Below, in pieces: positions 1,398-62,816 of a DNA stretch of 64,000 nt (its first letter is position 1; each line of letters starts with the position of its first letter). The stretch is from assembly GCA_043228905.1 (NCBI GenBank), contig JBHGNT010000012.1, positions 5,456,001-5,520,000 of the forward strand. The letters run 5' to 3'. The DNA is from Azolla caroliniana (Eukaryota > Plantae > Polypodiophyta). Under the pieces are notes generated by a model, which worked only from the letters and a program-made list of their open reading frames with translations, was not told the origin of the DNA and did not search any database. Both the position numbers and the translations under genes were made by a program.

Positions 1398-3006
1398 ATG
1401 GCCTTTGCCTACCCCCGTTTTAACGGCGAAACCAACGCCGCAACTCATATTCGCATGTTCCTTAATGTTTGGAATGTGAACCACATGGCGCAGAGCCTTT
1501 CGAAGGCGGTAGCGCACCAGTCGAAAATGACGGAGTTTAGGTTAACATTGGATGGGCGAGCGGCCTTTTGGCATTCACAGATGGATTTACCAGCAATAAC
1601 AACCTTCGATCAGCTGCAATCCGCTTTCTTGCGGTTCTTCCATCGGAGGGTCCCACAACGTGAAATCTTCGGACAGTTCTACACGATTAAGCAACTGCCG
1701 ACCGAGACGATAGCAGACTTCAACTTACGTTTCCAAAATTTACAGTGGAAACTAGAACGGAGCCCCGCGGAGGACGAGGCTTGAGAAACATTTCTGGCAG
1801 CATTACGCCGACCCATCCGGGCAACGCTCAACAACAATAGCGTGAAAGGGGAAATAGAGGATATGGTCATTGAATGAGCATTACAGCTCAAGTTGAACGA
1901 CGAGGAGGAAAGGTTTTCTATGTCCTCCTTACGACAAGCGTTACCCCAGGACGAGGAACACCAGTTTCGTCAAGCAATCCAGTGCACGATTTGCTTGAAC
2001 TCGGGGCATTCTGTAGTGGAGCGCAATATGCGAATCCACTGCCCAATTTGCCACTCGAAGCCTCACATAGTCGACCAATGCGAATACAATATGTTGAACA
2101 GAGCCACTCCCGCAGTCCGTAGCATGGACACCTAGCGTCCACCACACCGGACTGAACAAAGGAGGCAAGAAGATCGACCACGGTATAGGGATCGCAACCC
2201 ACGGGATGACCGGCACCACTGGATTCGCCGAAATCACAACGATTCCGAGGAGGCCGAACCAGAGGACGAGGATTATCGTGGACATCCGAGTTATGCTAAG
2301 GGGGGTCGGCGCTACGAGAATCACCGACCGACAAACAAACGGGGCGGCTTTAATGGTTATCGTGGTAAGCCGCAGCAGTATCGAGATCACCGGCGTTGCG
2401 ACGAAAGCTCGGGAGATGAGCGACACCAGGAACAACGACGGGACCAACAACAACCACCGCGTACGTTCCGACAAACGAGGCCGGACCGCGAGGAGCAAGT
2501 AGCACCAGGGGAGCGGCACACACCACCAGGAGCCGAGAAGGGTGAATCAAGCATCCATTGTTTTATTTGTCAGCAGCCCGGACATTATGCCACGCAATGC
2601 CCAACACGCAAGGGAAAGGGGCCCGATGTCAAGACGATTATGCCGGAAGTGCGGAAAGTCACAACACGCCAGCGAACAAAAACGGCTGATTGGGTTGCGC
2701 AAGATGAGATACATCAACAAGCCCAAGCATGGGTGGAAAAAGCAAACGTGACCAATACAGAGCGCATGCGGAAGGAGTCCGCGAACGCAAGGGAGCAAGC
2801 AGAGGACAAAGGACCGGTCACGGACCCCATTTGGCAGGCGTTAGCGGGCTGTGAGATAACGTTAACCATGGAGAAACTGTTGCAGCTAGTCCCACGCTTT
2901 CGCCAGACCATGGAAGAACGGGTGACAGGCATACCCGGGGTGAGTGTCGCTACAAACCTTACAGACGTTAGCGACGGACCGTTGGTAGTGGATCAGCACA
3001 ACCCGG
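1398..3006 (+). pseudogene. gag of Athila-like Gypsy (disrupted)
   Basis: Retrotrans_gag-like YPRFNG...LDGRAAFW...QLPTETIADFNLRF; zinc knuckles CPICHSKPHIVDQC and CFICQQPGHYATQC (~2558); frame resumes at 15412 after the insertions. Confidence 0.85.
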
Positions 3007-3680
3007 TGTCGTGAAGAAAACCGCCCACAAGAGGAATCGGAGGAACAAGGCGTGGGAAACGGCTCTACACACACGCGCGCCAAGAAGTACATACGAGGAT
3101 CCTAGGTGGGTAGATTCGGTTGGTATGCAGTTAATGCCAAACGGCCTCTTGACGGGATATAAAAAAGGAAGAGGAAGAATAGGAAAAGATATCTCGCGCG
3201 GAGAGGACGAAGTGCTGCGGAACCGATTTCGAAGCTCCTCTCTCACTCCTGCTCTCTCTGTCTTCTGCTCCATCGCGTACCTGTGCAGGTTTCGAGGAGG
3301 CTTGCGCTGTTCCGTGGAACGCCCCGAGTGCGTCCTGCAGCACCTCCGACCTGTTTTCCCCTTTCCGTGCGTCGCGACATACAGGGGTCGGCATCTGTTC
3401 GCCGCCCTGTTCGTTTTCGTTAGTATCTATTTCGTGCCCCACCGTGGGTTGTAACACTTTAGCTGTTATTTTCTTGCATTCATAAGTACATATCTTCAGT
3501 GGTTGCGTCCATCTGTGTCGGCGTTTATTTGTGATCTCTGTTTGTTGGGCCGTGTCCCTGTGCAATCTTCGGTTCTGTGTAATCGGGTCTCTCCTTCTCC
3601 TCTCTCTCTCTTGCTCTTCGGTCCAAGACCCCCCGTGGTCCCTCCTCCTTTCTGCACGCAAGGGCGTAGCAACCCCGACA
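3007..3680 (+). repeat. 5' LTR of Trp-primed Gypsy copy 1
   Basis: Near-identical to 9411-10083. Confidence 0.97.
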
Positions 3681-3683
3681 TCT

Positions 3684-3701
3684 TGGTGAACCCGACGTGA
3701 A
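3684..3701 (+). promoter_or_regulatory. Primer-binding site complementary to tRNA-Trp 3' end
   Basis: TGGTGAACCCGACGTGAA is the reverse complement of TTCACGTCGGGTTCACCA, the plant cytosolic tRNA-Trp(CCA) 3' end as I recall it. Confidence 0.88.
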
Positions 3702-3723
3702 AGAGGCGGCAGAAGAGCAGGAA

Positions 3724-5850
3724 ATGAGAGGGTCGGATCTCGCAGAGGCCATGGCTTCGGCCGTGGATCGGATTGTAAACGCGCGCGAGAGCACCGGTGC
3801 CCTCGACAGAGCTATTGAGGCGGTCGTCGGCACGATCGGCCGGTTCGATGGGAAGGATGCCACGAAGTATTTGGCGTCCTACGGTGCAGAGATGCTGATG
3901 CGGGACATTCCGGAAGAAAGGCGTCTTGCCGGATTTCCCCGAGTGGCGATGCCGAGCATCCACGCGGAGGTGCTCGAGGTGCGGATGGAGAGCCGTACCT
4001 GGGAGGAGTTCGAAGGTCGGCTCCTAGAGAAATACGGGCTGGACGACGCGCTCCGGCTTTCGAAGCGAAGGTTCATGGAATGGGTGGAGTCCCCGGGGAA
4101 GGGAAGAAACGCGTCGGCGCTCCTCCGGGAGTTCGAGGAAAACTTTGCGCGCCTTTCGGCGCTTGACCGAACCATCCTGGACACGAGCCGGGTCTTGCTG
4201 TTTGTCAAGTCGGTCGACGAGCGGGATCGGGAGCAAGTGGGCTTCTTGCTGGAAACCGAAGACGGGCTCACTACGGACTGGGCGGCTGTCAGGAAGGTCT
4301 GTGGCCGTTTCGACAAACGGCGAGAATGGGCGGATAACGGTGCAACCGGGTCGGGCTCGGTCGCAGCAAGGAAGCTCGATCCAGCGCCACAGGTGCGAAA
4401 GGAAGAGACCCGAGAGTGGTTGGATACCGGTTCGGCTCCGACCGGCGTAGTCAGAGGCTCAACCGGAGGAGCGGCGCTGGAGGAATTGACAAAGGCGATA
4501 AAGGACCTCCAAATCGCGCAGGCCCGAAGGGAAGGAGGCGAACCGGCTCGTGACCGACGGCCGGCGGCAGGAAACAGGTGCATGTGGTGCGATGAAGTCG
4601 GCCACATTCGGAAGGACTGCGGCGACTTCGCGGAGGCGCTGAGGAACAGGGTGGTGTACCTGTGGGAAGGACGGGTGCATGCCAGCGACACCCGAAGGGC
4701 CCTGAGCCGAAACGATGGAAAAGGCGGTATGAAAAGGGTGATGGAAGAGGCGGCGGCCCGACACGCGGAAACCGTCCACTACTCGACGTCAGCCGGCATT
4801 CGAGTCGGGGGCGGCGAGGCCCGAAGGGAAAGCGAAGCCGGATTCTGGCCGACGATGCTGGGAGGCCTTGCCGGTGCAGGGCTTAAAAGGGAGGAATCGG
4901 ACCGTGCGGAGAAACGGGTACGGGAGATGACCGGGTGGAGCGACCCGGTCGAGGAGAAGACGGGCTTCGTGGAAGCCGCTTGCCGGAACTACGAGGCTCT
5001 GGTAGAAGAGAAGCGGGTGGGGAAACCCGGGACGACCGGGCCCTCACAACGATACGAGACCCGGTCCGGGCCGCGACGGGACGAAGCCGGCGGGGCCGGT
5101 ACGCGAGATAAACCCCAGAAGGGCGGGTACCGTCTGGGGACGGAGATAGAAAGAACCACGGACTTACGAAAGGTCCTGGAGGAACGGATCCTCGACAGCA
5201 AGGTGGAGCTGTCGTTACGGGAGGTGCTGGGAATCGCCAAGAAGGAGTTCCACGACTCCATCGTGGACTTGGTGAAACGGAAGAGGCTGTCGACGGAGAC
5301 AGAACCGGAAAGACCGGTGGAAGTGCGGACGACGCACCTAGACGACATGGCGCTGGGAGACGAGTGGGCGGAAAGCCACTATTCGAGACCACACTGGGCC
5401 CGAGCGACCACGGAAACCCCGGTGAAGATCGGCGATGTCCAGGAACCGGTGATAGCTTTGGTGGACCACGGATCGGAGATCAATTTGATGTCCATGGACT
5501 TCTATAAGAAGGGCAAATGGCCGATCAACACCAAGCACGGGTGGAAAATAAGGGCAGCAACGCGCGCCACCGAGGAACTGCACGGGGCCTGTCCGAATGT
5601 GCGGGTCAAGATTGGCGACGTCGAGATTGACCAACACTTCTTCGTGCAGGAGACGTCTTCGCACCCGGTCATTCTGGGAGAACCGTACATTACGGCGGCG
5701 CGGATGGAGACCAAAGTGCTGGACAATGGTTCGGCCTACGCGAGGGTCAAAAGCCAAGACGGGCGCCATTCGGTCCAGTTTCTGACGGTAAGGCCGAACC
5801 ACGAACGTAACCGTGATTCCCTCGGTTCCGAAAACCGAGAGGATTTTTAG
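3724..5850 (+). CDS. Gag-protease polyprotein (ORF1), intact
   Basis: ATG at 3724; CCHC knuckle CMWCDEVGHIRKDC; aspartic protease ALVDHGSEINLM...VILGEPY; TAG at 5848-5850. Confidence 0.92.
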   Translation: MRGSDLAEAMASAVDRIVNARESTGALDRAIEAVVGTIGRFDGKDATKYLASYGAEMLMRDIPEERRLAGFPRVAMPSIHAEVLEVRMESRTWEEFEGRLLEKYGLDDALRLSKRRFMEWVESPGKGRNASALLREFEENFARLSALDRTILDTSRVLLFVKSVDERDREQVGFLLETEDGLTTDWAAVRKVCGRFDKRREWADNGATGSGSVAARKLDPAPQVRKEETREWLDTGSAPTGVVRGSTGGAALEELTKAIKDLQIAQARREGGEPARDRRPAAGNRCMWCDEVGHIRKDCGDFAEALRNRVVYLWEGRVHASDTRRALSRNDGKGGMKRVMEEAAARHAETVHYSTSAGIRVGGGEARRESEAGFWPTMLGGLAGAGLKREESDRAEKRVREMTGWSDPVEEKTGFVEAACRNYEALVEEKRVGKPGTTGPSQRYETRSGPRRDEAGGAGTRDKPQKGGYRLGTEIERTTDLRKVLEERILDSKVELSLREVLGIAKKEFHDSIVDLVKRKRLSTETEPERPVEVRTTHLDDMALGDEWAESHYSRPHWARATTETPVKIGDVQEPVIALVDHGSEINLMSMDFYKKGKWPINTKHGWKIRAATRATEELHGACPNVRVKIGDVEIDQHFFVQETSSHPVILGEPYITAARMETKVLDNGSAYARVKSQDGRHSVQFLTVRPNHERNRDSLGSENREDF

Positions 5851-5910
5851 AGAGGACTGCCAAGGCGTGGGGCCGCGACAGTCCGGACACCCCGGGAAAA
5901 CCCCACACCT
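5841..5910 (+). promoter_or_regulatory. Predicted -1 ribosomal frameshift signal (GGAUUUU plus H-type pseudoknot)
   Basis: G GAT TTT TAG; the -1 frame is open from here into RT; stem 1 5854-5859/5879-5884, stem 2 5863-5872/5901-5910; conserved in copy 2. Confidence 0.8.
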
Positions 5911-8900
5911 GTACGATAAAACCGAAGAAACCTTGTACCATAGGTAGGGAATTTTTGTTCTCCGACAGCGGAGCGTGCACGACAGTCGGCATCGGCGGCC
6001 GAGAGAAGAGAAAGGCGGAGGGGAGACTTCGAGCGTGCGGAGTTCTCGGCCCTGACGAGGAAATCGACGGAGCCGTGGAGGCGGTCTCATTCGACGACAC
6101 CTTGGGAATGCTGGGAAAGGTAGTCGAAGAAGGCCTTAACGAAGACCGGACGATACCGGTGTGTTCCGAGGAGATGTATGAAGTCATCGCGGACTTCGGT
6201 CGAGGGCTCGAGTCAGTTCGGACGGCCCACGTGAGCACCAAGTACAAGACTGTGGACCGGAAGGTAAGGCCAGTCGCGGCACCCTTACCGGAGGACAGCG
6301 CGTCGAGAATCAAAGGGGTTGCATCGGACCCTAGTCTACGAGATCCGGCCTGCATAGGACACACCTTTACCGACGAGACGCTCCGAGAGCTCAAAATCGG
6401 TGGGGGCGGGTTCCTACTGCCGGCGGAGGAAGACCGGTTTCGGAGAATGCTCGGAAGGCACGGGAAAGCCTTCGCATTCTCGCCGGAGGAAATCGGGTGC
6501 GTTGACCCGACGATCGTGGAGCCGATGGTGATATTCACGGTACCGCATGTACCATGGAATCTCAAGCCAATCCCGGTTCCGAGAGCTCACATCCCGAAGT
6601 TGATGGAGCTGCTGAGGCAGAAAGTTGATATGGGAATTCTCGAGCCGTCGAGCGCCCCATATTCGAATCGATGGTTTACCGTACCGAAGAAAAACGGTTC
6701 GTTGCGCTTCATCCAGGACCTGCAGCCGGTCAATCGAGTGACGATTCGGAACGCAGGGATCGGACCGACCATAGACGAGTTCGCGGAGGCCTTCGCCGGA
6801 AGGTCAATTTACTCGGTCGGGGATCTATACTCAGGGTACGACCAGTTCCAGCTAGCCGTGGAGAGCAGAGACATTACGACGATGCGAACTCCCCTCGGCC
6901 TAGTTCGGATGTGTACACTGCCGCAAGGAGGGACCAACTCGGTGGCCCACATGGTGAATGCGATGAACAAGGTTCTGAGGGACTGTATCCCGGACATCAC
7001 CATGCCGTTTCTGGACGACATTCCGATCAAAGGATGCCCGGTGGAAGAAAGGGACGAGACGATCGGGCCGGACGGATGCCGGCGATTCGTGGCGACGCAC
7101 ATCAACGACTGCGAGAAGGTGCTGCAAAGACTAGAGGATGCGAGACTCACCTTCTCCGGGGAGAAGTCGGCCTTCGGGCAGTCAGAAATCATGGTGGTCG
7201 GACACCTGTGCGGACCATATGGCCGGAAACCGTCTCCGGCAAAGGTAGAAGCCATCTCCGCGATGAAGCCCGACTGCAGCTCGGTCACGGAATTACGGAG
7301 ATTCCTGGGGGCATGCGCGTTCTACCACATATGGATCCCGCATTACGCACACGTCGCGGAGCCACTGTACGGGTTGCTGAAAAAGGGGTGAAGGTTCGAA
7401 TGGCTAGACGAGCATGCGGAAACGGTCCGGAGGCTGAAAGAGGCCCTTGCAGCGGCACCGGCACTCCGGAAGGCGGTATACGGGAAGGGTACCCCGGTAT
7501 TCATAACGGTGGATACCAGTCCGACCGGGATCGGATGGGTCGTGAACCAGGAAGACGAGGACGGCAATCGGTTTCCGATCCGATTCGGCGCGAAAGTCCT
7601 CAGTGAACGGCAGCGAGGATACGCCCAGGTTAAACGCGAACTCTGGGGTATTGTTTCGGCGGTTAAGGCCGACAAAGACTACCTGATAGGGACAGAAGTG
7701 ATCATCGAGACGGATTGCCTGCCGATTCTCGGTATGGTTTCCGGATGCGCGACTCCGGACCTGGCGATGCTCAGGTGGATAGCGTACATCAAGTCCCTGG
7801 ACCCGGAAATACGACACATTTCCGGGAAAGACAACGCCATGGCCGACATGCTTTCGAGGGCGAGGTTCGACGACGAGGGCGGCATGGTTTCGGAAGACGA
7901 AGAAGTCGGCGTGGATTTCTTCGAGACGGCACACATAACGACCGACGGGATGAGCACTCCGGCGCTTAACGAGTTCGACGCGAGCAAGTACGACGGGGAG
8001 TGGCTGCAGATCGGCGGGTTTTTGAAGGCAATGACGCCCGATGCGTCATGGACGAAGGACGAGGCCAACCGGATCCGGAAGAAAGCATATCGATTCTTTC
8101 TCCGAGATGGGCATTTGTGGAAGCACCCGAAGAAGAGGAACGGCGTCCCGCTCCGGGTGGTGGCGATGAAGGAAGAACAGGAGGAGCTACTGGCGGCCTA
8201 CCACGACAGCCCTTGGGCTGGACACCGTGGAACGTGGGCGACATTTGAGAAGCTGAAGGGGAAGTACTGGTGGCCGGGATTGTACCGGGACGTGCATCGG
8301 TTCGTGTCAACTTGCGAGAGTTGTCAGATGCACTCGATAGTCCGACACCGGGACGGGCTTCACCCTACGTACCCTCCGACTATCCACTTCAAATGGATGG
8401 TAGATCTGGTGACGATGCCGATGGGGGTAGGACAGATGCGGTATCTGGTCCTAGCACGGGAAGACCTGACGAACCAGGTGGAAGGCCGAGCCCTTCAGAA
8501 CAAGACGACCGCGGCCGTGTGTCGGTTCCTGATCGAGGACGTGATATGCCGGTACGGGTGCGTCGGGAAGATCGTGGCTGACCGAGGGGAGTTGGACGCC
8601 GAAGAAGCCGCGGAGCTGTTCGACCGGCTGGGGGTCAAGCTCTCGCTCACCGCTGCGTACAATCCGGAGGCGAATGGAAAGGTGGAGCGCGGACACGGAC
8701 CGATCGTCAAGGCGTTGGTTCGGGCATGCGGAGGCCGAATCGGTGACTGGCCGCGGCTCCTACCTTATGCCTTGTGGGCAGACCGGACCACGCACAGTTC
8801 GGTAACCGGGTACATGCCGACAGAGCTCATGTTCGGCCAGAAGCCGATCATGCCGATTGAACGGACGATCTCCTCGTGGGCAACGGTCGACTGGAGGGAC

Positions 8901-9338
8901 GAGATGAGCCGGGAGGAGTTGTTGGCCGCGCGTATACGACAGCTCGAGCGGAGACCGGAGGACGTGGCACTGGCTACGGAGAAGCTCCGGGTGGCGAGGA
9001 CAAAGAACAAAGCCCGGTTCGACCGAACGCACCGGCTACGACCGAAGAAAATCGACGAAGGTGACTGGGTGCTCGTCTACGACAGCAGCCTCGACAACCA
9101 GCACCGAGCAACGCGGAAGTTCGCACAGAGATGGTTCGGGCCGTACACGGTACAGAGCGCCAACGACAACGGGACGTATCATCTGGCGGAACTCGACGGT
9201 ACGAGAATAACGATACCCGTGGCCGGGAAGAGGATCAAAGCTTTCAAGAAGCGGCACGACAACGAACCCGACCCGATTCTCCTGGACAGCAGCGACGACC
9301 GATCCGAGGCCGAGGAAGGGCCGGCAGGCGAAGAGTAA
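5847..9338 (+). pseudogene. RT-RNase H-integrase (ORF2, -1 frame) with a single premature TGA at 7389-7391
   Basis: RT DLYSGYDQ...LPQGGTNS...PFLDD; RH VDTSPTGIG...ETDC...ADMLSR; IN HHCC, WMVD/ADRGE/KVE, WFGPY; ORFs 5955-7391 and 7509-9338 share one frame. Confidence 0.93.
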
Positions 9339-9410
9339 AGACGGGCCGGTTTTCTCCGTGCCAACTTAATTTGGCGCATACCGGTGGATGCGCGGTTAGG
9401 TGGGGGCGGA

Positions 9411-10083
9411 TGTCGTGAAGAAAACCGCCCACAAGAGGAATCGGAGGAACAAGGCGTGGGAAACGGCTCTACACACACGCGCGCCAAGAAGTACATACGA
9501 GGATCCTAGGTGGGTAGATTCGGTTGGTATGCAGTTAATGCCAAACGGCCTCTTGACGGGATATAAAAAAGGAAGAGGAAGAATAGGAAAAGATATCTCG
9601 CGCGGAGAGGACGAAGTGTTGCGGAACCGATTTCGAAGCTCCTCTCTCACTCCTGCTCTCTCTGTCTTCTGCTCCATCGCGTACCTGTGCAGGTTTCGAG
9701 GAGGCTTGCGCTGTTCCGTGGAACGCCCCGAGTGCGTCCTGCAGCACCTCCGACCTGTTTTCCCCTTTCCGTGCGTCGCGACATACAGGGGTCGGCATCT
9801 GTTCGCCGCCCTGTTCGTTTTCGTTAGTATCTATTTCGTGCCCCACCGTGGGTTGTAACACTTTAGCTGTTATTTTCTTGCATTCATAAGTACATATCTT
9901 CAGTGGTTGCGTCCATCTGTGTCGGCGTTTATTTGTGATCTCTGTTTGTTGGGCCGTGTCCCTGTGCAATCTTCGGTTCTGTGTAATCGGGTCTCTCCTT
10001 CTCCTCTCTCTCTCTTGCTCTTCGGTCCAAGACCCCCGTGGTCCCTCCTCCTTTCTGCACGCAAGGGCGTAGCAACCCCGACA
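9411..10083 (+). repeat. 3' LTR of Trp-primed Gypsy copy 1
   Basis: Preceded by G-rich PPT-like aggtgggggcgga (9398-9410). Confidence 0.97.
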
Positions 10084-10087
10084 CCGG

Positions 10088-10675
10088 TGTTAGGGAATCG
10101 ACGGTTTTAAAAAAACCTTCAGCTTTCGGCCAAAACCGAGGAAAACACGAGTCAGTGCAGCAGTAAATCCAAAACACAGAGAGAGACTCGAATGCACAGG
10201 GTTTAGCGTGGAAAACCCTAAACGGGAAAAAAACCACGGGAGTGCAAGACTCCAACTATCACTATACGCAGGGAATGTACAATGGCGAGCTGCAAGGCGA
10301 CGACCTTGAGCTTGCTGTCCTCGCCACAGGCGGCGGTATTACACAGAGGCGTCGACCTCTTCCTTTCTCTCTCTCTCTCTCGGCTCCTCTCACTTCGCTC
10401 CCTCTAAGTGGAAAACAAAAAATGAGCAACAACACAAAACTGTTTGCCCTAAGTCATATTTATACACATATGACTTTCGGGCTATTTACAAATATAGCCT
10501 CAAGGGCCCTTGGCAAACATATTCACAAATATGTCCCCGCATCCGGATCTCTCTCCGGGTACATACGTCATCCGGCTCCGTAGCCGGGGTCTTCGTCATC
10601 CGGCTCCGTAACCGCAACCGGGCTTGCCGTCATTCATCTCCGGACATCCCATCCGGAGGGACCGAGATCCCAACA
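10088..10675 (-). repeat. 3' LTR of Copia C (588 bp)
   Basis: Differs from the 5' LTR by about 6 substitutions and lacks one 28-bp repeat unit. Confidence 0.96.
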
Positions 10676-10685
10676 AACTCCCCCT

Positions 10686-13600
10686 TCACTTCGGCATGGG
10701 ATGTCTCTCCAATCCGATCCTCTTCCGGCATGCTTCCAGCTTGTCGGGTGTGAGCACCTTGGTCAGCATATCCGACCCGTTCTCGTCCGTGTGGATCTTC
10801 GTCAGTGCGAACTCCTTGTCTTCTATCCTTTCCCGGATCCAGTGATATCTTCGCTGGATGTGCTTCGTCCGGGAGTGATAGGCCGCGTTCTTCGCAAGGT
10901 GGATGGCACTCTGACTGTCGCAGTAGAGTCGGTACTCCTCCTGCCGGATACCGAGCTCTCTAATGAAGTCCTTCATCCATATCATTTCCTTGCCGGCTTC
11001 AACAGCCGCCATGTACTCCGCCTCCGTGGTTGACAATGCAACCGTCTTCTGCAGCCTCGACTGCCACGAAACAGCTCCCCCTGCATACGTCATCACATAC
11101 CCTGATGTGGACCGGCTGGTATCTGCATCAGCCGACATATCCGAATCGGTAAAGCCGTCGAGTTCGGGCTTACCGGAGCCGAATCGGAGGCACACGTTTT
11201 CCGTGCCCTTCAGGTATCGGAGTATCCACTTGGCCGCGTTCCAGTGTTCTTTGCCGGGATTGCTCATGTACCGGCTCACCACTCCGACTGCATATCCTAT
11301 GTCCGGTCTTGTACACACCATTGCGTACATCAAGCTTCCGACGGCAGAGGCGTATGGTACTTTCATCATGTCCTCCTTCTCAGCCTTTGTCTTCGGGCTT
11401 TGCTTGCTGGACAACTTGCAGTTTGCCGGGAGGGTTGACCCGACCGGTCTTGCTTCCGACATGTTGAACCGGTGAAGCACCTTTGTCACGTACTTCTCCT
11501 GTGACAGCCACAACTGCTTCTTCTTCCGGTCCCGGATGATGTGCATCCCTAGTATTTGCCTCGCCGGACCCAGGTCCTTCATTGAGAAGGTTCGGTGAAG
11601 CGCTTTCTTCAGCATCCGTATCTTGGCCTGGTCCCGTCCGACGATCAACATGTCGTCCACGTACAGGAGGAGTGTTAGGAAGTCTCCTCCTTCGAACTTC
11701 TTCACAAACACGCAGTGATCGGACTGCGTTTTGTGGTACCCTTCGTCGGTCATGAAAGAGTCGAACTTCCGGTACCATTGCCGGGGAGCCTGCTTCAGTC
11801 CGTAAAGGCTCTTCTTCAACCGGCATACCAGGTGCTCCTTCCCTTTCTTCTCGAATCCTTCCGGTTGCTGCATGTAGATCTCTTCTTCGAGGTCACCGTG
11901 AAGGAATGCCGTCTTCACGTCCATCTGTTCTACCTCGAGGTCCATGCTTGCCGCTATGCTCAGCACCGTCCGGATGGAGGTCATCTTCACTACCGGGGCA
12001 AATATCTCATCGAAGTCGACGCCCTTTTTCTGCTGGAACCCCTTCACCACGATCCTGGCTTTGTATCTCGGGGGGTTGCCGGCATCTCCCGGTTTTAGCT
12101 TGAACACCCACTTGTTTCGAAGTGCCCGCTTTCCTTTCGGCAACTCCACAAGTTCATATGTGTGGTTCTCATGCAGGGAATCCATCTCCTCCTGCATGGC
12201 ACTTAACCACCTGCGGTCATGGGTGTCAAGCTTTGCTTCTTCAAAACTCTCCGGCTCCCCCTCGTCGGTTAGCAGCACGTGCTCTGGTTCCGGAAATCTC
12301 CGGGGGGCCCTTCTCTCTCTTAGAGGATATCTCCGTTCCGGAGCTTCGGTAACCGGCTCCTCCGTTTCCTCTTCATCCGAATCCATTTCGAGATCGGGGC
12401 CGGTTCCGGTATCAGTTTCATCTTCCTCGGCCGGTTCTGTTTCTACACCGTCTTCAGCCGGATCCTCGAGTGCTAACCGGTCCCTTGCCGGTCGGGACTG
12501 CTCCTCGTAGAGTTGATCCTCACCGGTCGACTTGGAGCTTTTCATCTTCTTCTCCGACTCCCAGTCGGCGAGTGTCTTGTCCTCCATGAAGATGATATCA
12601 CGACTCCGAAATATCTTTTTGTCGACCGGGTCCCATACTCGGTAGCCGAACTCGTCATCGCCGTAACCGAGGAATATGCATGGTCGGGTCTTTGGATCTA
12701 GCTTTCCTCTCCGGTCCTTTGCCACATGCACATATGCGAGACACCCGAACACCTTCAGATGCCGGTAGGATACTTCCCTACCGGTCCACAATCTTTGCGG
12801 CGTGTCTCCGTCCAAAGGTACTGAGGGTGATCTGTTTATCACGTATGTCGCCGTCGACATTGCCTCAGCCCAAAACCCCTTGGGTAATTTCGCATGCGCC
12901 AGCATACTCCGGACCCTCTCCATTATGGTCCGGGTCATCCTCTCGGCCAGCCCGTTCAGTTCCGGCGTCTTCGGCACAGTAAACTCGAGCCGGATTCCCT
13001 TCGAGCGACAGTACTCCTCGAACTGCCCCCGGTATTCCCCTCCGTTATCCGCTCGTATCGCTTTCAGCTTCTTGCCGGATTCCCTTTCCACTCTCGCGTG
13101 GAGTTCTTTGAAGACGCACAACACTTGGTCCTTTGTCTTCAACAGTGCCGTCCACAGCTTCCGGCTGTGGTCATCAATGAATGTCACGAAGTACTGGGCT
13201 CCGCCATGTGACTTCGTTTCTACTTGACACACGTCAGTGTGCACCAACTCCAATGGTGCGCTACGTCTCGTCGGTGGCCTTGAGTGGAAGGAGGTTCGGT
13301 TCTGCTTACCGGCCAGGCAATCGGTGCACTTCTCCAGGTGCACGTGCTTCACTGGAATAAGGTTGTCTTCTGCAAGCCTCTTCATCCCCTTCTCACTCAT
13401 GTGGCAAAGTCTCTTGTGCCACAGCTCACCGGCAGTGTCGGCTGCCACGTTCAACTCCTCCGGACACAACCAGGCATTCATAAGGTACAGTGTGTTGACT
13501 TTCCGGGCCCGAGCCACTATCAGGCTCCCCTTGCTGAACTTCATTACGCAGTTCCGGATGCTACCTGTGTAGCCTTCATCGTCTAGCCTCCCGGCCGAAA

Positions 13601-14759: not shown

Positions 14760-14790
14760 TGTCTGCACTGCAGTCGCTCTGATACCAGAT

Positions 14791-15406
14791 TGTTAGGGAA
14801 TCGACGGTTTTAAAAAAACCTTCAGCTTTCGGCCACAACCGAGGGAAACACGAGTCAGTGCAGCAGTAAATCCAAAACACAGAGAGAGACTCGAATGCAC
14901 AGGGTTTAGCGTGGAAAACCCTAAACGGGAAAAAAACCACGGGAGTGCAAGACTCCAACTATCACTATACGCAGGGAATGTACAATGGCGAGCTGCAAGG
15001 CGACGACCTTGAGCTTGCTGTCCTCGCCACGGGCGGCGGTATTACACAAAGGCGTCGACCTCTTCCTTTCTCTCTCTCTCTCTCGGCTCCTCTCACTTCG
15101 CTCCCTCTAAGTGGAAAACAAAAAATGAGCAACAACACAAAACTATTTGCCCTAAGTCATATTTATACACATATGACTTTCGGGCTATTTACAAATATAG
15201 CCTCAAGGGCCCTTAGCAAACATATTCACAAATATGTCCCCGCATCCGGATCTCTCTCCGGGTACATACGTCATCCGGCTCCGTAGCCGGGGTCTTCGTC
15301 ATCCGGCTCCGTAGCCGGGGTCTTCGTCATCCGGCTCCGTAACCGCAACCGGGCTTGCCGTCATTCATCTCCGGACATCCCATCCGGAGGGACCGAGATC
15401 CCAACA
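14791..15406 (-). repeat. 5' LTR of Copia C (616 bp)
   Basis: TGTTGGGA...CCCTAACA on the minus strand; adjacent iMet PBS. Confidence 0.96.
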
Positions 15407-15411
15407 CCCGG

Positions 15412-22765: not shown

Positions 22766-22788
22766 CGGGATGGGTCCGACGTGCCAGG

Positions 22789-24549: not shown

Positions 24550-27500
24550 TGTCGAGTTGTTACGATCTTCGCGTACGGAAAGAGGCGGGACCGCGGGGGC
24601 CTTGAACCAAGGAGCAGGAGAAAGAAGAGAGGGAGGGAGAAGTCTTGCAGAAACACAAAGGGAGAAGGAGAGAACAAAGTCTTAATTACAAATCAAACGA
24701 TTACAACCAGCAAGCCGGCAACGGACCCAACTCAGGTGGACACACACACAATGCTCACACGCCAAGCACAAAAACGTGAAGGGAGAGCCTCTGATGGAGG
24801 CGCACGGGCTATCCACGAAGCAGAGGCGGCGATCTCCAAAACCCGTAGAGAATGACCACCGAAGGAGGAGAGAGAGAGCTCGGTACACGGTCCGACAGCA
24901 CTTCGTCCTCGCTAATCCACGATACCCCCATAGGCCGTCGAGGCAGGCCGTTGCACCCTCGTTTTCATCAAATTATTCTCTGTCCTATCGAACAGAGATA
25001 CTCGTTGATTCCCAAAACTTTCGATGCGTCACATCTAGTCTATTTACACCCACCGTCCTACTCCTAGTTATGTACAAGGTATTAATTGGTGTGGGAAAGT
25101 GTAGGGCCAGTTCATGCGCCCAGCTTCGCCGATTCCACTTTTGGCCGGTTTTCTTCACAACATCCACCCCCACCAAACTGCGCATCCACCGGTATGCGCC
25201 GAAGAGGGACAGATACCGGAGAAAACCGGCTCACGTTCACTCATCGCTCTCTGAATTATCAGCGTCCCCGAACCGATCGTCGTCGTTATCGCTCCCCCGC
25301 TCCGGCTCATCTTCGTACCGCTTCTTGAACACTTTAATCCGCTTCCCGGCTACCGGCACCGCCAATTGTGTCTCGTCGAGCTCCGCAAGATGGTACGTGT
25401 TGTTGCCATTTGTGCCCGAACCATCTCCTCACGAATTTGCGGGTCGCCTTGTGCTGGTTGTCGAGGCTGCTGTCGTAAACCAACACCCAGTCGCCTTCCT
25501 CAATCTTCTTCGGTTGTAGCTGGTGCGTCCAGTTGAACCGGGTTTTGTTTCATTCCCTTGTCGTGCGTAGCTTCTCCTTCGCCCGTTCCACGTCCTCTGA
25601 TCTCCGCTCAAGTTGTCGGATCCACGACGCCAACAACTCTTCCCAGCTCATTTCTTCCTTCCAGCCCACCGCAGCCCACGAAGAAATTGTCCGTTCCACC
25701 GGCATGATCGGTTTCTGCCCGTACATTAGTTCCACCGGCATGAACCATGTTACCGAATTGTGCGTAGTCCGGTCCGCCCACAACACATAGGGTAAGAGCC
25801 GCGGCTAGTTTCCGACTTGGCCCCCACACGCCCGTACTAACGCTTTGACGATTGGTCCGTGTCCGCGTTCCACCTTCCCGTTAGCCTACGGATTGTAAGC
25901 CATGGTGAGCGAGAGTTTAACCCCTAGCCGGTCAAACAGCTCTTCCGCCTCTTCCACGTCTAGTTCCCTGCAGTCGGCCACGATCTTGCCGACGCACCCA
26001 TACCGGCATACCACATCTTCGATTAGAAACTGGCACACGGCCGCAATCGTTTTGTTCTACAACGCTCGGCCTTCCACCTGGTTCGTCAAGTCTTCCCGAG
26101 CCAGCACCAAATACCACATTTGCCCTACCCCCATCGGCATCGTCACCAGATCCACCATCCACTTGAAGTGGACGGTCGGAGGGTACGTCGGGTGAAGCTC
26201 GTCTCGATGTCGGACTATGGAGTGCATCTGACAGCTTTCGCAAGTCGTTACAAACTGATGCACATCCCGATATAGTCCCGGCCACCAGTACTTCCCCTTC
26301 AGCTTCTCAAATGTGACCCATGTCCCGCGGTGTCCGGCCCAAGGACTCTCGTGGTACTCCATAAGCAACGCTTTCTGCTCGTCCTCCCTCGCCACTAAGC
26401 AGAGTGGGGTGTCGCGTCGCTTCTTCCGGTGCTTCCATATGCGCCCTTCCCGTAGGAAGAACCGGTACGCCTTCCTCCGCACCTGGCAGGCCTCTTCCCT
26501 CGTCCACGCCGCGTCCGGCGTCATTGTCCATAGGAACCTCCCGACTCGGAGCCACTGTCCGTCGTAATCACTCTCGTGGAACTTGTTTAGCGCCGGAGTG
26601 CTCCCCTTTCTTGTTGTAATGTTGGCTGACCCGAAGAAGTCCTCGCCGACTTCTTCGTTATCCGAAACCATATCGTCCTCGTCGTTAAACTGCGCCCTTG
26701 AAAGCATATCAGCCATGGCATTATCTTTCCCGGAGATGTGCCGTATCTCCGGGTTCAGGGACTTGATGTACGCGATCCACCTGAGCACCGCCAGGTCCGG
26801 AGTTGCGCATCCGAAGACCATACCCAGAATCGTGACGGGAACTAAACGCTCCTTATGCACAACGCTCGGCCACAACCAAGCTTAGAATCATACACAAAAA
26901 ACAAGAATGAATGCACGACACAGTGAAAAGAAGAGTACACAGGATGTTTACGTGGAAAACCCAAACTAGGGAAAAACCACGGCAACCCACAGGCTGCAAA
27001 CTATCACTATGTTACAGTGTACAATAGTAAAGCACCGAGGCAACAACCTTGAGCTTTCTATCTTCGCCACAGGCGGCGGTTACAACAGAGGCAACGACCT
27101 CTTCCTCTCTCTCTCTCTCTCTCTGTACACAGTTACGCGCTCTGATCTAGCACAAACAAGAATAACAACAACCTCTACATCACACACAATAAGTTTGCCC
27201 TAAGTCATATTTACACTAATATGACTTTTCGGCTATTTACAAATATAGTCTCGATGGACTATCAGAAACATATTTACGAATATGTCTCTTCATCCGGTGA
27301 GCACTCCTCACCGGGGTACTCCTCATCCGGTTCTCACCGGGTCTGCACCATCCGGCTCTCCGAAGCCGGGTACTCCTCATCCAGTTTCGGCCTCGGCCAA
27401 GTTTGCTCATCAGCACTGTTCATCTCCCTTCCCATCCGGAGGGACCTGTCTCCCAACAAATTGGTAGGCAGTCTATCTCGATGATCACTTCCGTCTCGAT

Positions 27501-30500
27501 CAGATAGTCCTTGTCGGCCTTGACTGCCGAAACGATACCCCATAGCTCGTGCTTAACTTGGGCGTATCCTCGCTGCCGCTCGCTCAATACCTTCGCCCCG
27601 AACCGGATCGGGAACCGTACGTCGTCCTTGTCCTCCTGACTGATCACCCACCCGATCCCAGTCGGGCTCGTGTCCACCATCACGTAGATGGGGACTTCCT
27701 TGCTGTAAACCGCTTTCCGGAGAGCCGATGCCGCGGCGAGCGCCTCCTTCAGTCTCCGGACCGACTCCATGTGCCCGTCTCTCCACTTGAATTTACACCC
27801 TTTCTTCAATAGCCCGTAGAGTTGTTCCGCAACATGTGCGTAGTGCGGAATCTAGATATGGTAGAACGCGTACGCACCCAAGAATCTGCGGACCTTCGTA
27901 ACCGACCCGCAGTCGTCCTTCATCACAGAGATGGCTTCTACCTTTGCTGGGGACGGTTTCCAGCCATAGGGCCCGCACAGGTGTCCGACTACCAGGATCT
28001 CCGTCTACCCGAACGTTGATTTCCCTCCGGAGAAGGTGAGTCGCGCGCTCTCGAGCCTTTGCAGCACCTTATCGCAGTCGTTGATGTGGTTCACGACGAA
28101 CCTCCAGCATCCGTCCGGCCCGACCATTTCGTCTGCATCCTCCACCGGACACCCTTTTATCGGTATGTCGTCTAGAAACGGCATAGTGATGTCCGGGATG
28201 CAGTCCCTCATCACCTTGTTCATTGCGCCACCGAATTCATTCCTCCTTGTGATAGGGTACACATCTGCACCAAGCCGAGAGGAGTCCACATTGTCGTGAT
28301 GTCCCTGCTCTCTACGGCTAGTTGGAATTGGTCGTACCCTGAGTATAAGTCACTGACCGAATAGATCGACCTCCTGGCGGAGGCCTCCGCGAACTCGTCT
28401 ATGGTCGACCCGATTCCTGCATTACGGATGGTCACCTTGTTGACCGGTTGCAGGTCCTATATAAAGCGCAATGTGTCGTTCTTCTTTGGCACCGTGAACC
28501 ACCGATTCGAGTATGGGGCACTCGACGGTTCGAGGATGCCCATATCCACCTTCTACTTCAGTAGCTCCATCAGCATCGGGATGTGAGCTATGGGCACCGA
28601 AATCAGCTTGAGATTCCACAGCACATGCGGTACCGTGAAGATCACCATTGGCTCGACGATTGTCGGGTCTACGCACCCGATCTCCTCCGGCGAGAATGCG
28701 AAGGCCTTCCCGTGACTTCCGAGAATCCTTCGAAACCAGTCCTCCACCTTCGGCAGTAGAAAGCCACCTCCACCAACCTTGAGCTCCCGCAGCGTTACAT
28801 CGGTGAACCATTGCCCTATGCCGACTGGATTCCGTAAACTTGGATCCGATGCGACCCCCTTTATCCACTCTCTGTTGCCCTCCGGCAAGGGTGCCGCAAC
28901 TGGCCTCACCTTCCGGTCCACAGTCTTGTGCTTCGTATCCATGCGGGCCATTCGATTCGACCCGATCCTCTCCCCGAAGTACGCGATGACTTCTACATTC
29001 CCATCGAGCTAACCGGAACGGTTTGGTCTTCGCTAAGGCCTTTACCGACCACCTCTCGTAATTCGCCCAAGGTGTCATCAAAAGAGACCGCCTCCACGGC
29101 GCCGCTAATTTCTTCGTCGGGGGAGAGGACTCCACACTCCCTAAGTCGTCTCTCCGCCCGCTTCCTCTCCTGGCTACTGATGCCGGTTAGTGTCGACCTC
29201 CATTTTCGGAGAACCAAAATTTCCTACCTATAATACATGTGTGGGGTTCTTTTGGGGTCTCCGGACTATCGCGGCCCCACGCCTTCATAGCCCTCTCTAA
29301 AAATCCCCTCGGTTGTCGGTGCCGAGGGTCTCACAGTTTCGCTCGTGGTTGGGTCGCACTGTCATGAATTGTACGGAATGCCGACCGTCTTGGCTCTTGA
29401 CGCGCGCATACACCGAACCATTGTTCAGTACTTTCGTCTCCATGCATGTTGCCGTAATGTACAGTTTGCCAAGAATTACCGGGTGCGAGGAAGTCTCCTG
29501 CACGAAGAAATGTTGATCTATCTCAACGTCGTTGATCTTCACGCGTACATTCGGGCACACACCATGCAGCTCCTCTGTAGCGCGCGTCGCCGCGCGTATC
29601 TTCCACCCGTGCTTGGTGTTGATCGGCCATTTCCCCTTTTTATAGAAGTCCATGGACATCAGGTTGATCTCCAAACCGTGGTCTACTAATGCCACCACCG
29701 GCTCCTGGACGTCGTCGATCCGAAGAGGGGTTTCCGTAGTGGCCCTAGCCCAATGCGGTTTCGCGTAGTGGCTTTCCGCCAACTCATCCTCTAGGGCCGT
29801 GTCTTCTAAGTGCGTCATCCACACTTCCATCGGCCTCTCCGGTTCCGGCTCCGTCGAGAGCCTCTTCCGCTTCACCAAGTCCACGATGGAGTCGTGGAAC
29901 TCCTTCTTGGCGATTCCCAGCACCTCTCATAACGACATCTCAACCTTGCTATCAAGAATTATCTCTTCCAGGACCTTCCGCAAGTCCGTTGTATGTTCGA
30001 TTTCAGTGCTCAGCCGGAAATCGGCCTGCTTCTTCTTCTCCGATGCGCCGGTGTTGGCAGCCTCATTCGGCTTCGGTCCGAACCGGGTCTAGTACCGCTG
30101 CGAGGGGCCACCCCCCCGGGCCTTTCCCACGCGTTTGTCTTCTACCAGAACCTCGTAGTTCTAGCATGCAGCTGCCACGAAGCCAGTCTTTTCTTCCACT
30201 GGGTCGTCCTATCCAGTGACCTCCCGAATCCGCTGTTCCGCGCGGTCTGCCTCTTCCTTCTTCAGTCGTACTCCGGAGAGACCCTCTAGCACCAGCGGCC
30301 AAAATCTAGAGTCCTTCGCTTTCCGGGCCTCATCACCCCCGACCCAGATTCCCGCCGACGTCGAGTAGTTAACGGCCTCTGCATGTCGTGTTGTGGCCTC
30401 TTCCATCAACCGCTTCATTCCGCCACGCCCTATATTCAACTCTAGGACTTTCCAGGTCTCGCTCGTGTGCACCTGCCCGTTCCAGAGGTACACCATGTTG

Positions 30501-32100
30501 GTCCCGAGTGCCTCGGCGAAATCCGCGCACTCTTTCCGGATGTGGCCAACCGTGTCGCACCACATGCACCGCTACCCCGGCGGTGGCCTTTGGTCACGAG
30601 ATTGTTCGCCGCTGTCCCTCCGAGCCTGTGCGATTTGGAGATCTCGCACCATCTGCGACAGCTCTTCTAGAGCCGCGCCTCCAGAGGGACCTTTGACCAC
30701 TCCGCTCGGGGCTGAGCCCGTCTCAAGCCAACTCCGATTTTCTTCCTTCCTAGCCAGTACCGACACCAGCTCCTTGAGCTCCCTCGCCGGGACCGGCCTT
30801 GCCGCCGACAAGCCCTCGTCGCTCCACTCGCACCGCTTGTCGAAACGACCGCAGACCCTCCTTACCATGGCCAAGTTTGCCGTGAGCCCTTCATCCGTTT
30901 CCAACAGGAGACCCACATTCTCCCAATCCATAGCGTCCACCGACTTGACAAATAGTAGTACCCGGCTTGTGTCAAGCACGGTCCGGTCCAGCGTTGACAG
31001 CCGTGCGAACCGTTTCTCGAACTCCTGGAGGAACGCTGACGCGTTCCTCCCCTTTCCAGGGCTCTCAACCCATGCCATGAAGTCCCGCTTCGACACCGGA
31101 AGCGAGTCATCGAACCCATACATCTCAAGGAGCCACAGCTCGAACTCCTCCCAAGTCTGGCATCCGGCCAGTGCCTCAAGAACCTCTGCGTGGATGCTCG
31201 GCGTCACCACCCGAGGGAATCCGGACAGTCGCCTGTCCACCGAGATATCCCTCATGATCATTTCGGCCCGGTAGGCCTCCAAGTAGCTCGTGGCATTCTT
31301 CCCACCGAATCGACCTATGGGGTCGACGATCAACTCAATGGCCCTGTCGAGGGCACCCGTTCCCTCACGAGCGCTCATTAGCCGGTCGACGGCTACGGCC
31401 ATAGCTTCAGCAAGCTCGGATCCCCTCATCCTTCACTCCTTTGCCGCTTGTTTCACGTTGGGTTCACCAAATATGTCGAGTTGTTACGCTCTTCGCGTGC
31501 GGAAAGAGGCGGGACCGCGAGGGCCTTGAACCAATGAGCGGGAGAAAGAAGAGAGAGAGGGAGAAGTCTTGCAGAAACACAAAGGGAGAAGGAGAGAACA
31601 AAGTCTTAATTACAAATCAAATGATTACAACCGGCAAGCCGGTAACGGACCCAACTCAGGTGGACACACACACACACACACACACACAATGCTCACACGC
31701 CACGCATAGAAACGTGAAGGGAGAGCCTCTGATGGAGGCGCACGGGCTATCCACGAAGCAGAGGCAGCGATCTCCAAAAACCGCAGAGAATGACCACCGA
31801 AGGAGGAGAGAGAGAGCTCGGTACACGGTTCGGCGGCACTTCGTCCTTCCTAATCCACGATACCCCCATAGGCCGTCGAGGCAGGCCGTTGCACCCTCGT
31901 TTTCATCAAATTATTCTCTGTCCTTTCGGACAGAGATACTCGTTGATTCCCAAGACTTGCAATGCGTCACATCTAGTCTATTTACACCCACCGTCCTACT
32001 CCTAGTTATGTACAAGGTATTAATTGGTGTGGGAAAGTGTAGGGCCAGTTCATGCGCCTTGCTTCGCCAATTCCGCTTCTGGCCGGTTTTCTTCACGACA
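24550..32100 (-). mobile_element. Older, degenerate Trp-primed Gypsy (copy 2; sister subfamily of 3007-10083)
   Basis: LTRs 31474-32100 (5') and 24550-25162 (3'); 4-bp TSD gcgt at 24546-24549 and 32101-32104; PBS tggtgaacccaacgtga 31469-31453; gag-PR 31429-29297 and RT-RH-IN ~29300-25240 with many stops and frameshifts. Confidence 0.95.
26833..27458 (-). mobile_element. Solo LTR, same family as 16521-17276
   Basis: TGTTGGGA...TCCCGTCA on the minus strand; TSD aatcg/aattg; splits the host RH motif DCLPI|LGM. Confidence 0.9.
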
Positions 32101-61850: not shown

Positions 61851-62364
61851 CTAGCTTTGTGTGTAATTAGCTCGACTACCAGCCCGTAGAATGTTCCCAT
61901 CTTTGTCATAAACATCGAGAGAGTCACACGGGCGTGGATATGCCTTCCCGATCACCTTGCCATGCACAAAAGAGCATTGGAAGATGTGTTTCTTCTTCCT
62001 TGTCACTCCAACACCAAAGTCTCTAAACACAATATCTTCTACAGGCACCTTTGCACTTCCATAGATGCGGACTGGAATTCTTATATCATTTCCATGTATG
62101 CCGAGAAAGGAGATGTTTTGCACCACCGGTAGAGCTTTCGGATCGTAATCCTTATCTGGGTGCTCATTATAATCTGTTTTGATTACAATGCCCACCCTTA
62201 CTACATCCAATGTAATATTTTTGAAAGACAAGGCATATATTCGCCCTCCTCTCCCTGGAGCTGTTTTGATCCGTACACCTCGTTTAGAACGCCATACATA
62301 GTAGTTTTCTACAGTTACATTGTTCACACCACCCGACATTTCACTTCCAATGGATATTCCTGCA
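61851..62364 (-). CDS. Polygalacturonase (GH28), last exon; upstream exons lie beyond or are not resolved
   Basis: ttttcag acceptor, then SAGISIGSEMSGGV...GVRIKTAPGRGG...YNEHPD...PRPC. Confidence 0.9.
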
Positions 62365-62816
62365 CTGAAAATCACATCATGCATTACTGATATGTTTGTG
62401 GCCTTATACATAATTAATAGTATATTAGCTTTCTGACCTACAGAGCTTACTCAGTGTGCTACATTAAGAACAACAAATGGAACATTTCATAATGAGCATA
62501 GCATAGATTGAAACAATTAATGGCAGATATGGTAACATATAAACATTCAAAGATGAGAATAACATTGATCAAGATATTTAGGGATGTACATTCAAATATA
62601 AGCATAGCATCAATCATTATATTTAGTGATGGATATACTAGCATGCTCATATATTAAGAATGTTGGGGTTGGGAGGAAAGGTGTAAAGACAATTACAACT
62701 ATAACTGCATTGGGTGAATGGGAGGCTATACCTAAGGTTAATTAGGAGATTGTGGTTGGGGTAATGCTATCAACAAATCAACCGATGGGTGATTTGAGAC
62801 GAATCATCTCTCCAGA

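What the first reader, a model, noticed from the sequence alone, without database searches (positions are those of the whole stretch)
3007..10083. Atypical plant Gypsy lineage: tRNA-Trp primer, 4-bp TSD, fungal-looking RT
Seen in two independent insertions: 17-18 nt Trp PBS, 4-bp TSDs (ccgg, gcgt), TGTCG...CGACA ends, gag ATG about 22 nt after the PBS, no chromodomain, RT signature DLYSGYDQ/LPQGGTNSVA/PFLDDIPIKG. Known: seed-plant LTR lineages typically give 5-bp TSDs and use Met, Lys, Arg or Asp primers; Yarrowia Ylt1 gives 4-bp TSDs. Inference: a Ylt1-like lineage outside the standard plant classification, either ancient and lost in seed plants or exchanged with fungi. Near-identical LTRs show recent activity.
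Basis: partly seen in the sequence, partly recalled or inferred. Interest (0 to 1): 0.75.

Follow-up and report, generated by a model that had tools for sequence, protein, structure and literature searches.

The report
Phygy retrotransposon with frameshift pseudoknot
This is a young copy of a plant jumping gene that most likely belongs to the already classified Phygy lineage of mosses, liverworts and ferns; it carries a conserved slippery site and a predicted RNA pseudoknot that likely shift ribosomes back one base between its protease and reverse transcriptase, and its nearest relatives found outside land plants are in fungi and a stonewort alga.

Summary
A 4-bp NCGN target duplication, a tRNA-Trp primer site and no extra domain are the features REXdb lists for Phygy. 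Here 15 of 15 paired copies had 4-bp NCGN duplications, the primer site matches host tRNA-Trp at 18 of 18 bases, and the protease is 65-71% identical to Physcomitrium proteins. REXdb's own Phygy sequences could not be read, so membership rests on these proxies.

Two additions. (1) RT-RNase H groups with Chara and fungal elements at 100/100, apart from the host's other non-chromovirus lineage (AU p 4.5e-7). Vertical descent via Chara is not rejected (p 0.22), so transfer is not shown, and Ylt1 itself was not tested. (2) The Gag-protease frame ends at G_GAT_TTT plus stop, with pol in the -1 frame in 57 of 60 related loci, followed by a covarying H-type pseudoknot. This points to -1 ribosomal frameshifting between protease and RT; REXdb left Phygy's gene organisation undetermined and my paper searches did not find this signal. 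It is untested at the bench.

The parts
3003..3006 (+). left 4-bp target site duplication (CCGG, NCGN type)
3007..3680 (+). 5' LTR of element 1, 674 bp, TGTCG...CGACA
3684..3701 (+). primer-binding site, 18 of 18 complementary to host tRNA-Trp(CCA) 3' end plus CCA, 3 nt after the LTR
3724..5850 (+). ORF1: Gag (CCHC knuckle 4579-4620), DUF4100, aspartic protease (DHGSE 5464-5478), 708 aa
5841..5847 (+). slippery heptamer G_GAT_TTT directly before the ORF1 stop; predicted -1 frameshift site
5854..5906 (+). predicted H-type pseudoknot: stem 1 5854-5859 with 5879-5884, stem 2 5867-5872 with 5901-5906
5817..9338 (+). ORF2 in the -1 frame: RT, RNase H, integrase with C-terminal SH3-like (GPY/F) part, no chromodomain, no second RNase H; one in-frame stop at 7389-7391 private to this copy
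9398..9410 (+). purine-rich tract before the 3' LTR (putative PPT)
   Evidence: same tract before 1566 LTR starts in the genome
9411..10083 (+). 3' LTR of element 1, 673 bp
10084..10087 (+). right 4-bp target site duplication (CCGG)
24550..32100 (-). element 2, older member of the same lineage (about 76% DNA identity over the inner region), TSD GCGT, PBS 31452-31469, slippery site 29300-29306, interrupted by a solo LTR at about 26833-27458

Best explanation
This is a young, full-length LTR retrotransposon, most likely of the known Phygy lineage, which inserts at NCGN sites with a 4-bp duplication, likely primes reverse transcription with host tRNA-Trp, and likely makes its RT and integrase by a -1 ribosomal frameshift just after the protease. 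Shown: the anatomy, the tRNA match, the target-site rule, the two overlapping frames, the conserved heptamer and the covarying stem. Inferred: most ribosomes stop after Gag-protease; a minority slip back one base on G_GAU_UUU, held by the pseudoknot 5-6 nt downstream and the adjacent stop codon, giving Gag-PR-RT-RH-IN. Protease would then be as abundant as Gag while RT and integrase stay scarce. Inferred: the integrase reads a short symmetric site (Y-R-CG-Y-R), which would steer copies into CG-rich DNA such as other transposons. The lineage is the land-plant branch of a wider DUF4100-bearing clade shared with Chara and fungi, probably the Ylt1-like group.
For: Phygy features in PMC6317226 Add. 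file 5 and the NCGN passage. TSD 15 of 15. Genome-wide, 3800 exact LTR starts, 1566 behind the PPT, and 1889 of the other 2234 (85%) preceded by CGN. 20 P. patens, 6 Adiantum and 3 Riccia proteins among the 120 listed Gag-PR hits; protease 65-71% identical to 6 P. patens proteins and in one 99-support clade with them. Phygy reported in ferns (PMC13477047, one passage) and a liverwort (PMC12885004, passages). Frameshift: pol in the -1 frame with an in-frame heptamer in 57 of 60 metagenome loci that hold pol; 70 of 120 Gag-PR hits end in DF, GF or NF and 28 more have DF/GF 3-6 residues before the end; stem 1 has two-sided changes at 8 of 10 pairs, 86.8% of cells paired against 25-46% when slid; pseudoknot score 33 or more in 25 of 28 junctions against 8 of 791 other windows of the same loci. 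G_GAU_UUU is a known shift site in pea enation mosaic virus (PMC5009743, passage). Tree. DUF4100 in the window element, P. patens, Smittium, Tilletia and Chara proteins. CG frequency 0.07-0.10 in the window's elements against 0.017 in the gene-bearing half.
Against: No REXdb Phygy RT could be fetched (file too large), and no P. patens RT was among the 120 listed hits, so the link to P. patens rests on the protease. At 7077 bp the element is below the published Phygy range of 7656-9968 bp. 76 of the 80 junction loci come from one series of metagenome assemblies, so they are not independent of each other; 3 of 60 had pol in another frame. The stem was drawn from these same sequences, which favours it over slid controls. 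Plain folding of the junction was no better than shuffles (z -0.07, -0.52, 0.31), though that program cannot form pseudoknots. Rfam gave no match. Frameshifting itself was not measured.
Confidence: 0.85

Rival explanations
1. A separate Ylt1-like lineage outside the plant classification, that merely resembles Phygy.
For: No direct comparison with REXdb references; size below the Phygy range; nearest named relatives outside land plants are fungal and charophyte.
Against: All three diagnostic features match Phygy, including the NCGN preference that REXdb calls unique to it; P. patens, the species Phygy was defined from, holds close relatives.
Confidence: 0.06
2. Land-plant Phygy came from a fungus by horizontal transfer into an early land plant, separately from the Chara elements.
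For: In the 73-row tree the land-plant clade sits among fungal-anchored groups with Chara outside (supports 97/84, 99/85, 98/91 on short branches). A precedent is published for Tcn1 (PMC2864245, passages and section 5).
Against: With 34 rows these nodes fall to 46-73 bootstrap; land plants plus Chara as one clade is not rejected (p-AU 0.22), nor is fungal monophyly (p-AU 0.14). Plant-fungal RT identity is only about 38-46%. 18 of 30 proteins looked up had no organism.
Confidence: 0.3
3. Pol is not made by frameshifting but from a spliced RNA, as reported for Ogre, or by reinitiation; the stem serves packaging or dimerisation.
For: Ogre has Gag-PR and RT-RH-INT separated by an intron (PMC6317226 section 13). 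Riccia gene models join PR and RT in 27 of 34 cases, which could reflect predicted introns.
Against: The frames overlap instead of being separated; the -1 frame is open from the heptamer on in 27 of 30 close copies and 57 of 60 loci; spacing heptamer to stem is 5-6 nt in 25 of 28; no splice joints in two poly(A) runs of a related species, although depth was under about 10.
Confidence: 0.08
4. It is a TatI element, the other REXdb lineage with a 4-bp TSD and tRNA-Trp primer.
For: TatI: 4 bp 100%, tRNA-Trp 75%.
Against: TatI has an extra RNase H between PR and RT; the 220 residues there give no Pfam hit at E up to 1. Grouping with the host's Athila-like lineage is rejected.
Confidence: 0.01

Closest known systems
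Phygy clade of non-chromovirus Ty3/gypsy elements (Neumann et al. 2019, PMC6317226; sections 8 and 13, passages, and Additional file 5 read)
   Same: 4-bp TSD with NCGN preference, tRNA-Trp primer, no chromodomain, no extra RNase H, no extra ORFs, coding region filling the inner part; close P. patens relatives
   Different: 7.1 kb against 7.7-10 kb in P. patens; here the coding organisation, listed there as not determined, is Gag-PR overlapping RT-RH-INT in the -1 frame
Fungal Ylt1-like and SN_1006 elements (Novikova et al. 2010, PMC2864245, section 5 and passages; Tca3 in PMC4139406, table passage and section 9)
   Same: No chromodomain; members in Asco- and Basidiomycota, as for the fungal relatives found here; Tca3 LTRs have a 4-bp TSD
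   Different: Several fungal relatives have PR and RT in one frame. Tca3 is said to prime minus-strand DNA by a distinct mechanism
Umbravirus -1 frameshift signal (pea enation mosaic virus G_GAU_UUU with a nearby stop; Atkins et al. 2016, PMC5009743, passages)
   Same: Same heptamer and a stop codon just 3' of it
   Different: Here the stop follows directly and the predicted stimulator is a local H-type pseudoknot; the host element is a retrotransposon
Avian sarcoma-leukosis retrovirus gag-pro / pol layout (recalled, from no call)
   Same: Protease made in frame with Gag; RT and integrase reached by a -1 frameshift with a pseudoknot
   Different: Unrelated lineage, no envelope here; a working analogy only
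Ogre and Retand (Tat) elements (PMC6317226)
   Same: [quoted passage not shown]
   Different: They use a spacer intron or a stop codon, carry an extra RNase H and give 5-bp TSDs

Membership tests
Phygy (REXdb) | RT-RH-INT clusters with the REXdb Phygy references | not testable with these tools
   REXdb FASTA and element table too large to read
Phygy (REXdb) | Proxy: groups with P. patens non-chromovirus proteins | tested here: met
   Protease 65-71% identical, one clade at 99 SH-aLRT with P. patens, Riccia, Adiantum; that these P. patens proteins are Phygy is inferred
Phygy (REXdb) | 4-bp TSD | tested here: met
   15 of 15 paired insertions, plus element 2
Phygy (REXdb) | NCGN target preference | tested here: met
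   16 of 16 sites; 1889 of 2234 non-PPT LTR starts preceded by CGN
Phygy (REXdb) | tRNA-Trp primer-binding site | tested here: met
   18 of 18 to host tRNA-Trp; 34 Trp-type sites behind an LTR-like end in the 80 metagenome loci
Phygy (REXdb) | No chromodomain, no extra RNase H, no extra ORF | tested here: met
TatI (REXdb) | Extra RNase H between protease and RT | tested here: not met
   No Pfam hit in window 5841-6500 at E up to 1
Chromovirus (Tcn1 and others) | Chromodomain after integrase; RT in the chromovirus clade | tested here: not met
   about 28% identity to host Tcn1-like RTs
OTA (Athila/Tat) | RT-RH groups with Athila/Tat | tested here: inconclusive
   Grouping with the host's other non-chromovirus lineage rejected (p-AU 4.5e-7), but that lineage is called Athila-like from a recalled RT motif and no reference Athila or Tat was in the tree
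Fungal Ylt1 clade | RT-INT clusters with Ylt1 or Tca3 | not testable with these tools
   No Ylt1 sequence obtained; supplements with alignments unreadable; original paper not held
Fungal Ylt1 clade | Proxy: groups with non-chromodomain fungal Gypsy proteins from Asco- and Basidiomycota | tested here: met
   100/100 clade with Zalerion, Tilletia, Phenoliferia, Smittium and Chara; shared DUF4100 in 3 of those 4 scanned
Programmed -1 frameshift signal | In-frame X_XXY_YYZ-type heptamer, second ORF in -1 frame | tested here: met
Programmed -1 frameshift signal | Stimulatory structure 5-9 nt downstream | tested here: met
   (predicted and covarying, not probed)
Programmed -1 frameshift signal | Measured frameshifting | not testable with these tools
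   needs a reporter or ribosome profiling

The most novel reading that the evidence does not exclude
Phygy is not a sister of Athila/Tat but the land-plant branch of the fungal Ylt1-like clade, so the plant 'non-chromovirus' group has two origins; and it is a plant LTR-retrotransposon lineage that has kept a retrovirus-style -1 frameshift with an H-type pseudoknot between protease and RT across mosses, liverworts and ferns.
Probability: 0.6. Interest if true: 0.55.

Novelty: new member of a known kind. Interest (0 to 1): 0.4.

Why it matters
As flagged, the finding is a rediscovery of Phygy. What is left is useful. REXdb states that the relation of plant non-chromoviruses to non-plant lineages 'remains unclear'; this tree ties Phygy to fungal and Chara elements. 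A 2016 review, citing a 2003 survey, knew only +1 arrangements in plant elements, and REXdb left Phygy's organisation undetermined; here a 70-nt, directly testable -1 signal is conserved across the lineage. A family of about 2000 insertions with a strict NCGN rule also allows a test of whether CG reading or CG methylation steers insertions away from genes.

Tried and rejected
Plain RNA folding of the junction gave no signal. Rfam: no match in 3007-10083. The REXdb sequence files, the Novikova alignments and the original Ylt1 paper could not be read; they bear directly on membership. The P. patens TE paper's supplement held only legends, so I could not tell whether RLG2 or RLG3 is Phygy; its text calls the RLG2 tree, which included fungal sequences, congruent with species phylogeny. 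A host-gene search gave only 2 orchid proteins at 46-47%: the host is a plant, with no finer placement. A seed-free host is inferred from Phygy plus Tcn1-like RTs (compared by eye with the SM-Tcn1 passage). No seed-plant protein appeared among the named hits, which is weak evidence of absence because only the top 120-150 hits are listed. RNA of a related species gave 283 and 177 reads of about 12.6 million each at 90-99% identity: low-level transcription of relatives, too thin to exclude splicing. One search failed by a script error and was redone. The residue-before-DF test (68 of 68 codable by NNG) is weak, since the control is already 141 of 159. Rejected: a 5-bp TSD hidden by the neighbouring Copia element (the Copia has its own CCCGG duplication); TatI; chromovirus. 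Paper searches that found no description of the Phygy frameshift or of a Phygy-Ylt1 link: (listings; only some papers opened; subscription papers, including Gao et al. 2003, not seen).
Full report
Observation. Element 1 spans 3007-10083 with LTRs of 674 and 673 bp that differ by one substitution and one indel, ends TGTCG...CGACA and a CCGG duplication. The primer-binding site at 3684-3701 matches, 18 of 18, the 3' end plus CCA of host genes that ARAGORN calls tRNA-Trp(CCA) (62 pattern matches in the genome; tRNA-Trp called in 10 of the 12 loci examined). The gag ATG lies 22 nt further on. ORF1 (708 aa) holds a CCHC knuckle, DUF4100 and an aspartic protease; ORF2 holds RT, RNase H and integrase, with no chromodomain and no second RNase H. 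Element 2 (24550-32100, minus strand) has a GCGT duplication, a 17 of 18 primer site and LTRs 5% apart. Element 1 has an in-frame stop at 7389, seen in 1 of 30 close copies; 27 of 30 are open over the stretch held.

Family. An exact 17-base LTR start occurs 3800 times in the 523-Mb genome; 1566 follow the purine tract and so are 3' LTRs; 1889 of the other 2234 are preceded by CGN. Of 30 LTR loci fetched (the best 30 of 40 scored), 28 paired into 15 insertions including 2 solo LTRs; 2 had no partner. All 15 have a 4-bp duplication, all NCGN, none 5 bp. The wider site leans to Y-R-CG-Y-R. Twelve of 12 paired copies compared have 0-3 LTR substitutions; these were chosen for likeness to element 1, so they show a recent burst, not the age of the whole family.

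Nest. Element 1 sits at the edge of a Copia element (10088-15406) whose own 5-bp duplication is CCCGG on both sides once element 1 is set aside, inside the protease region of an older Gypsy element. The order is outer Gypsy, then Copia, then element 1, in line with LTR identities of 95%, 98.7% and 99.7%. The 4-bp duplication is therefore not a disguised 5-bp one.

Classification. REXdb (PMC6317226; passages, sections 8 and 13, Additional file 5) lists Phygy with 4-bp TSD 100% (NCGN), tRNA-Trp 81%, no extra domain, 7656-9968 bp and coding organisation not determined, and names Phygy as the one lineage with a target preference. A second paper also finds 4-bp TSDs most common in Phygy (PMC6911290, passages). 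Phygy is reported in ferns (PMC13477047, one passage) and a liverwort (PMC12885004, passages). The RT search gave Riccia proteins at about 61-72%; the Gag-protease search gave 20 P. patens, 6 Adiantum and 3 Riccia proteins among 120 listed. The protease is 65-71% identical to six P. patens proteins and 22-33% to fungal and Chara ones, and the land-plant rows form one clade at 99. REXdb's sequences could not be read, so this is a proxy, but all tested features agree. The element is shorter than the P. patens range; the paper treats size as a weak character. TatI shares TSD and primer but needs an extra RNase H, absent here.

Fungal link. Below the land-plant hits is a tier at about 38-46% RT identity. 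Of 30 proteins looked up, 12 had an organism: Chara braunii 6, Smittium culicis 2, Zalerion, Tilletia, Phenoliferia and, further out, a pseudoscorpion. In RT-RNase H trees (73 rows, one candidate dropped for short cover; 34 rows) land-plant, Chara and fungal rows form one clade at 100/100 on a long branch, apart from the host's Tcn1-like RTs and its other non-chromovirus lineage. Forcing the land-plant rows with that lineage is rejected (p-AU 4.5e-7). That lineage is called Athila-like from a recalled motif; no reference Athila or Tat was in the tree. DUF4100 is shared by the window element, P. patens, Smittium, Tilletia and Chara but was not found in Zalerion, and Atlas look-alikes of ORF1 and RT include clusters that are mostly Basidiomycota (leads only). 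Within the clade the order is unsettled: the larger tree nests land plants among fungi, but land plants plus Chara (p-AU 0.22) and fungal monophyly (p-AU 0.14) are not rejected. Novikova et al. (PMC2864245, section 5) found that fungal Gypsy elements are chromoviruses or Ylt1-like/SN_1006, so the fungal rows are probably Ylt1-like; this is inference, since no Ylt1 sequence was at hand.

Expression mechanism. ORF1 ends G_GAT_TTT_TAG at 5841-5850 and ORF2 is open in the -1 frame across it. The heptamer is intact in 30 of 30 element-1-like and 25 of 30 element-2-like copies. Of 80 metagenome loci, 8 ended before the junction and 12 held no pol; in 57 of the other 60 pol is in the -1 frame with an in-frame heptamer. 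76 of the 80 come from one series of assemblies, so breadth across hosts rests on proteins: 70 of 120 Gag-PR hits end in DF, GF or NF, including 2 from Riccia, 28 more have DF or GF 3-6 residues before the end, including P. patens and Adiantum models, and 22 have neither, 19 of them gene models. After thinning 67 junctions to 28 at under 85% identity, each gave an H-type pseudoknot that at most 2 of 40 shuffles reached; stem 1 starts 5-6 nt after the heptamer in 25 of 28; 25 of 28 score 33 or more against 8 of 791 other windows, while 84 of 791 reach the lowest observed score of 27. On a plain alignment stem 1 has two-sided changes at 8 of 10 pairs, covariation 0.394 against 0.243 shuffled (0 of 500), and 86.8% pairing against 25-46% when slid; the structure was drawn from these sequences and they are related, so these controls flatter it. 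Stem 2 shows T-A, C-G and A-T at one column, in a register chosen by best pairing. G_GAU_UUU is a known viral shift site (PMC5009743, passage). I infer -1 frameshifting, giving abundant Gag-protease and scarce RT-integrase. Outside Riccia gene models, 109 of 112 land-plant RT frames lack the protease, while 25 of 121 deeper relatives have it in frame; many of the rest are fragments, so whether fungi share the split is open. Two poly(A) runs of a related species showed a few hundred reads, mostly sense over pol, and no splice joint at low depth.

What is known and what is new. The flagged features are those of Phygy, described in 2019. I did not find the frameshift signal or a Phygy-Ylt1 link in the searches; two plant reviews or papers opened for 'frameshift' do not mention it (PMC12786077, PMC5580714, passages). 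Subscription papers and the unreadable supplements may hold either. REXdb does list overlapping GAG and PROT frames for Tcn1 and Selgy, so overlaps as such are known in seed-free plants.

Verdict. Observation confirmed; interpretation partly supported; new member of a known kind, with one probably undescribed mechanism and one useful phylogenetic link. Interest 0.4.

Noticed in passing
window 674-23197: Outer, older Gypsy element (Athila-like by recalled RT motif). Directly before its 3' LTR (about 22770-22788) stands an inverted primer-site-like sequence instead of a purine tract (seen), matching the dual-tRNA lineage that earlier scan notes describe for this genome.
   Followed up: partly
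window 3002-3006, 10088-15406, 15407-15411: Intact-looking Copia element (1368-aa ORF, minus strand) with a 5-bp CCCGG duplication; element 1 inserted into its left duplication, flush with its LTR.
   Followed up: yes
window 16521-17276 and 26833-27458: Two solo LTRs related to the Copia LTR, one in the outer element's RT (ATGAG duplication), one in element 2's RNase H region.
   Followed up: partly
G000 C8:17.80-17.82 Mb, C16:4.99-5.11 Mb, C5:10.11 Mb: The tRNA-Trp 3'-end pattern occurs 62 times, many in tandem clusters at about 0.9-1.2 kb spacing; an unusually large tRNA-Trp gene set in a genome with thousands of Trp-primed elements.
   Followed up: no
window 34001-64000: Gene-bearing, low-GC half (polygalacturonase-like GH28 exon at 61851-62450) with CG at 0.49 of expectation, against 1.0-1.2 in the transposon nest.
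   Followed up: partly
L113:7482: A second Trp primer site behind the 3' LTR end followed by a different sequence, suggesting tandem or nested Phygy copies (also L132).
   Followed up: no
P0119, P0245, P0374: A divergent sister branch of the land-plant clade (56-60% RT identity) from unnamed assemblies; may be algal or hornwort and would matter for the origin question.
   Followed up: no
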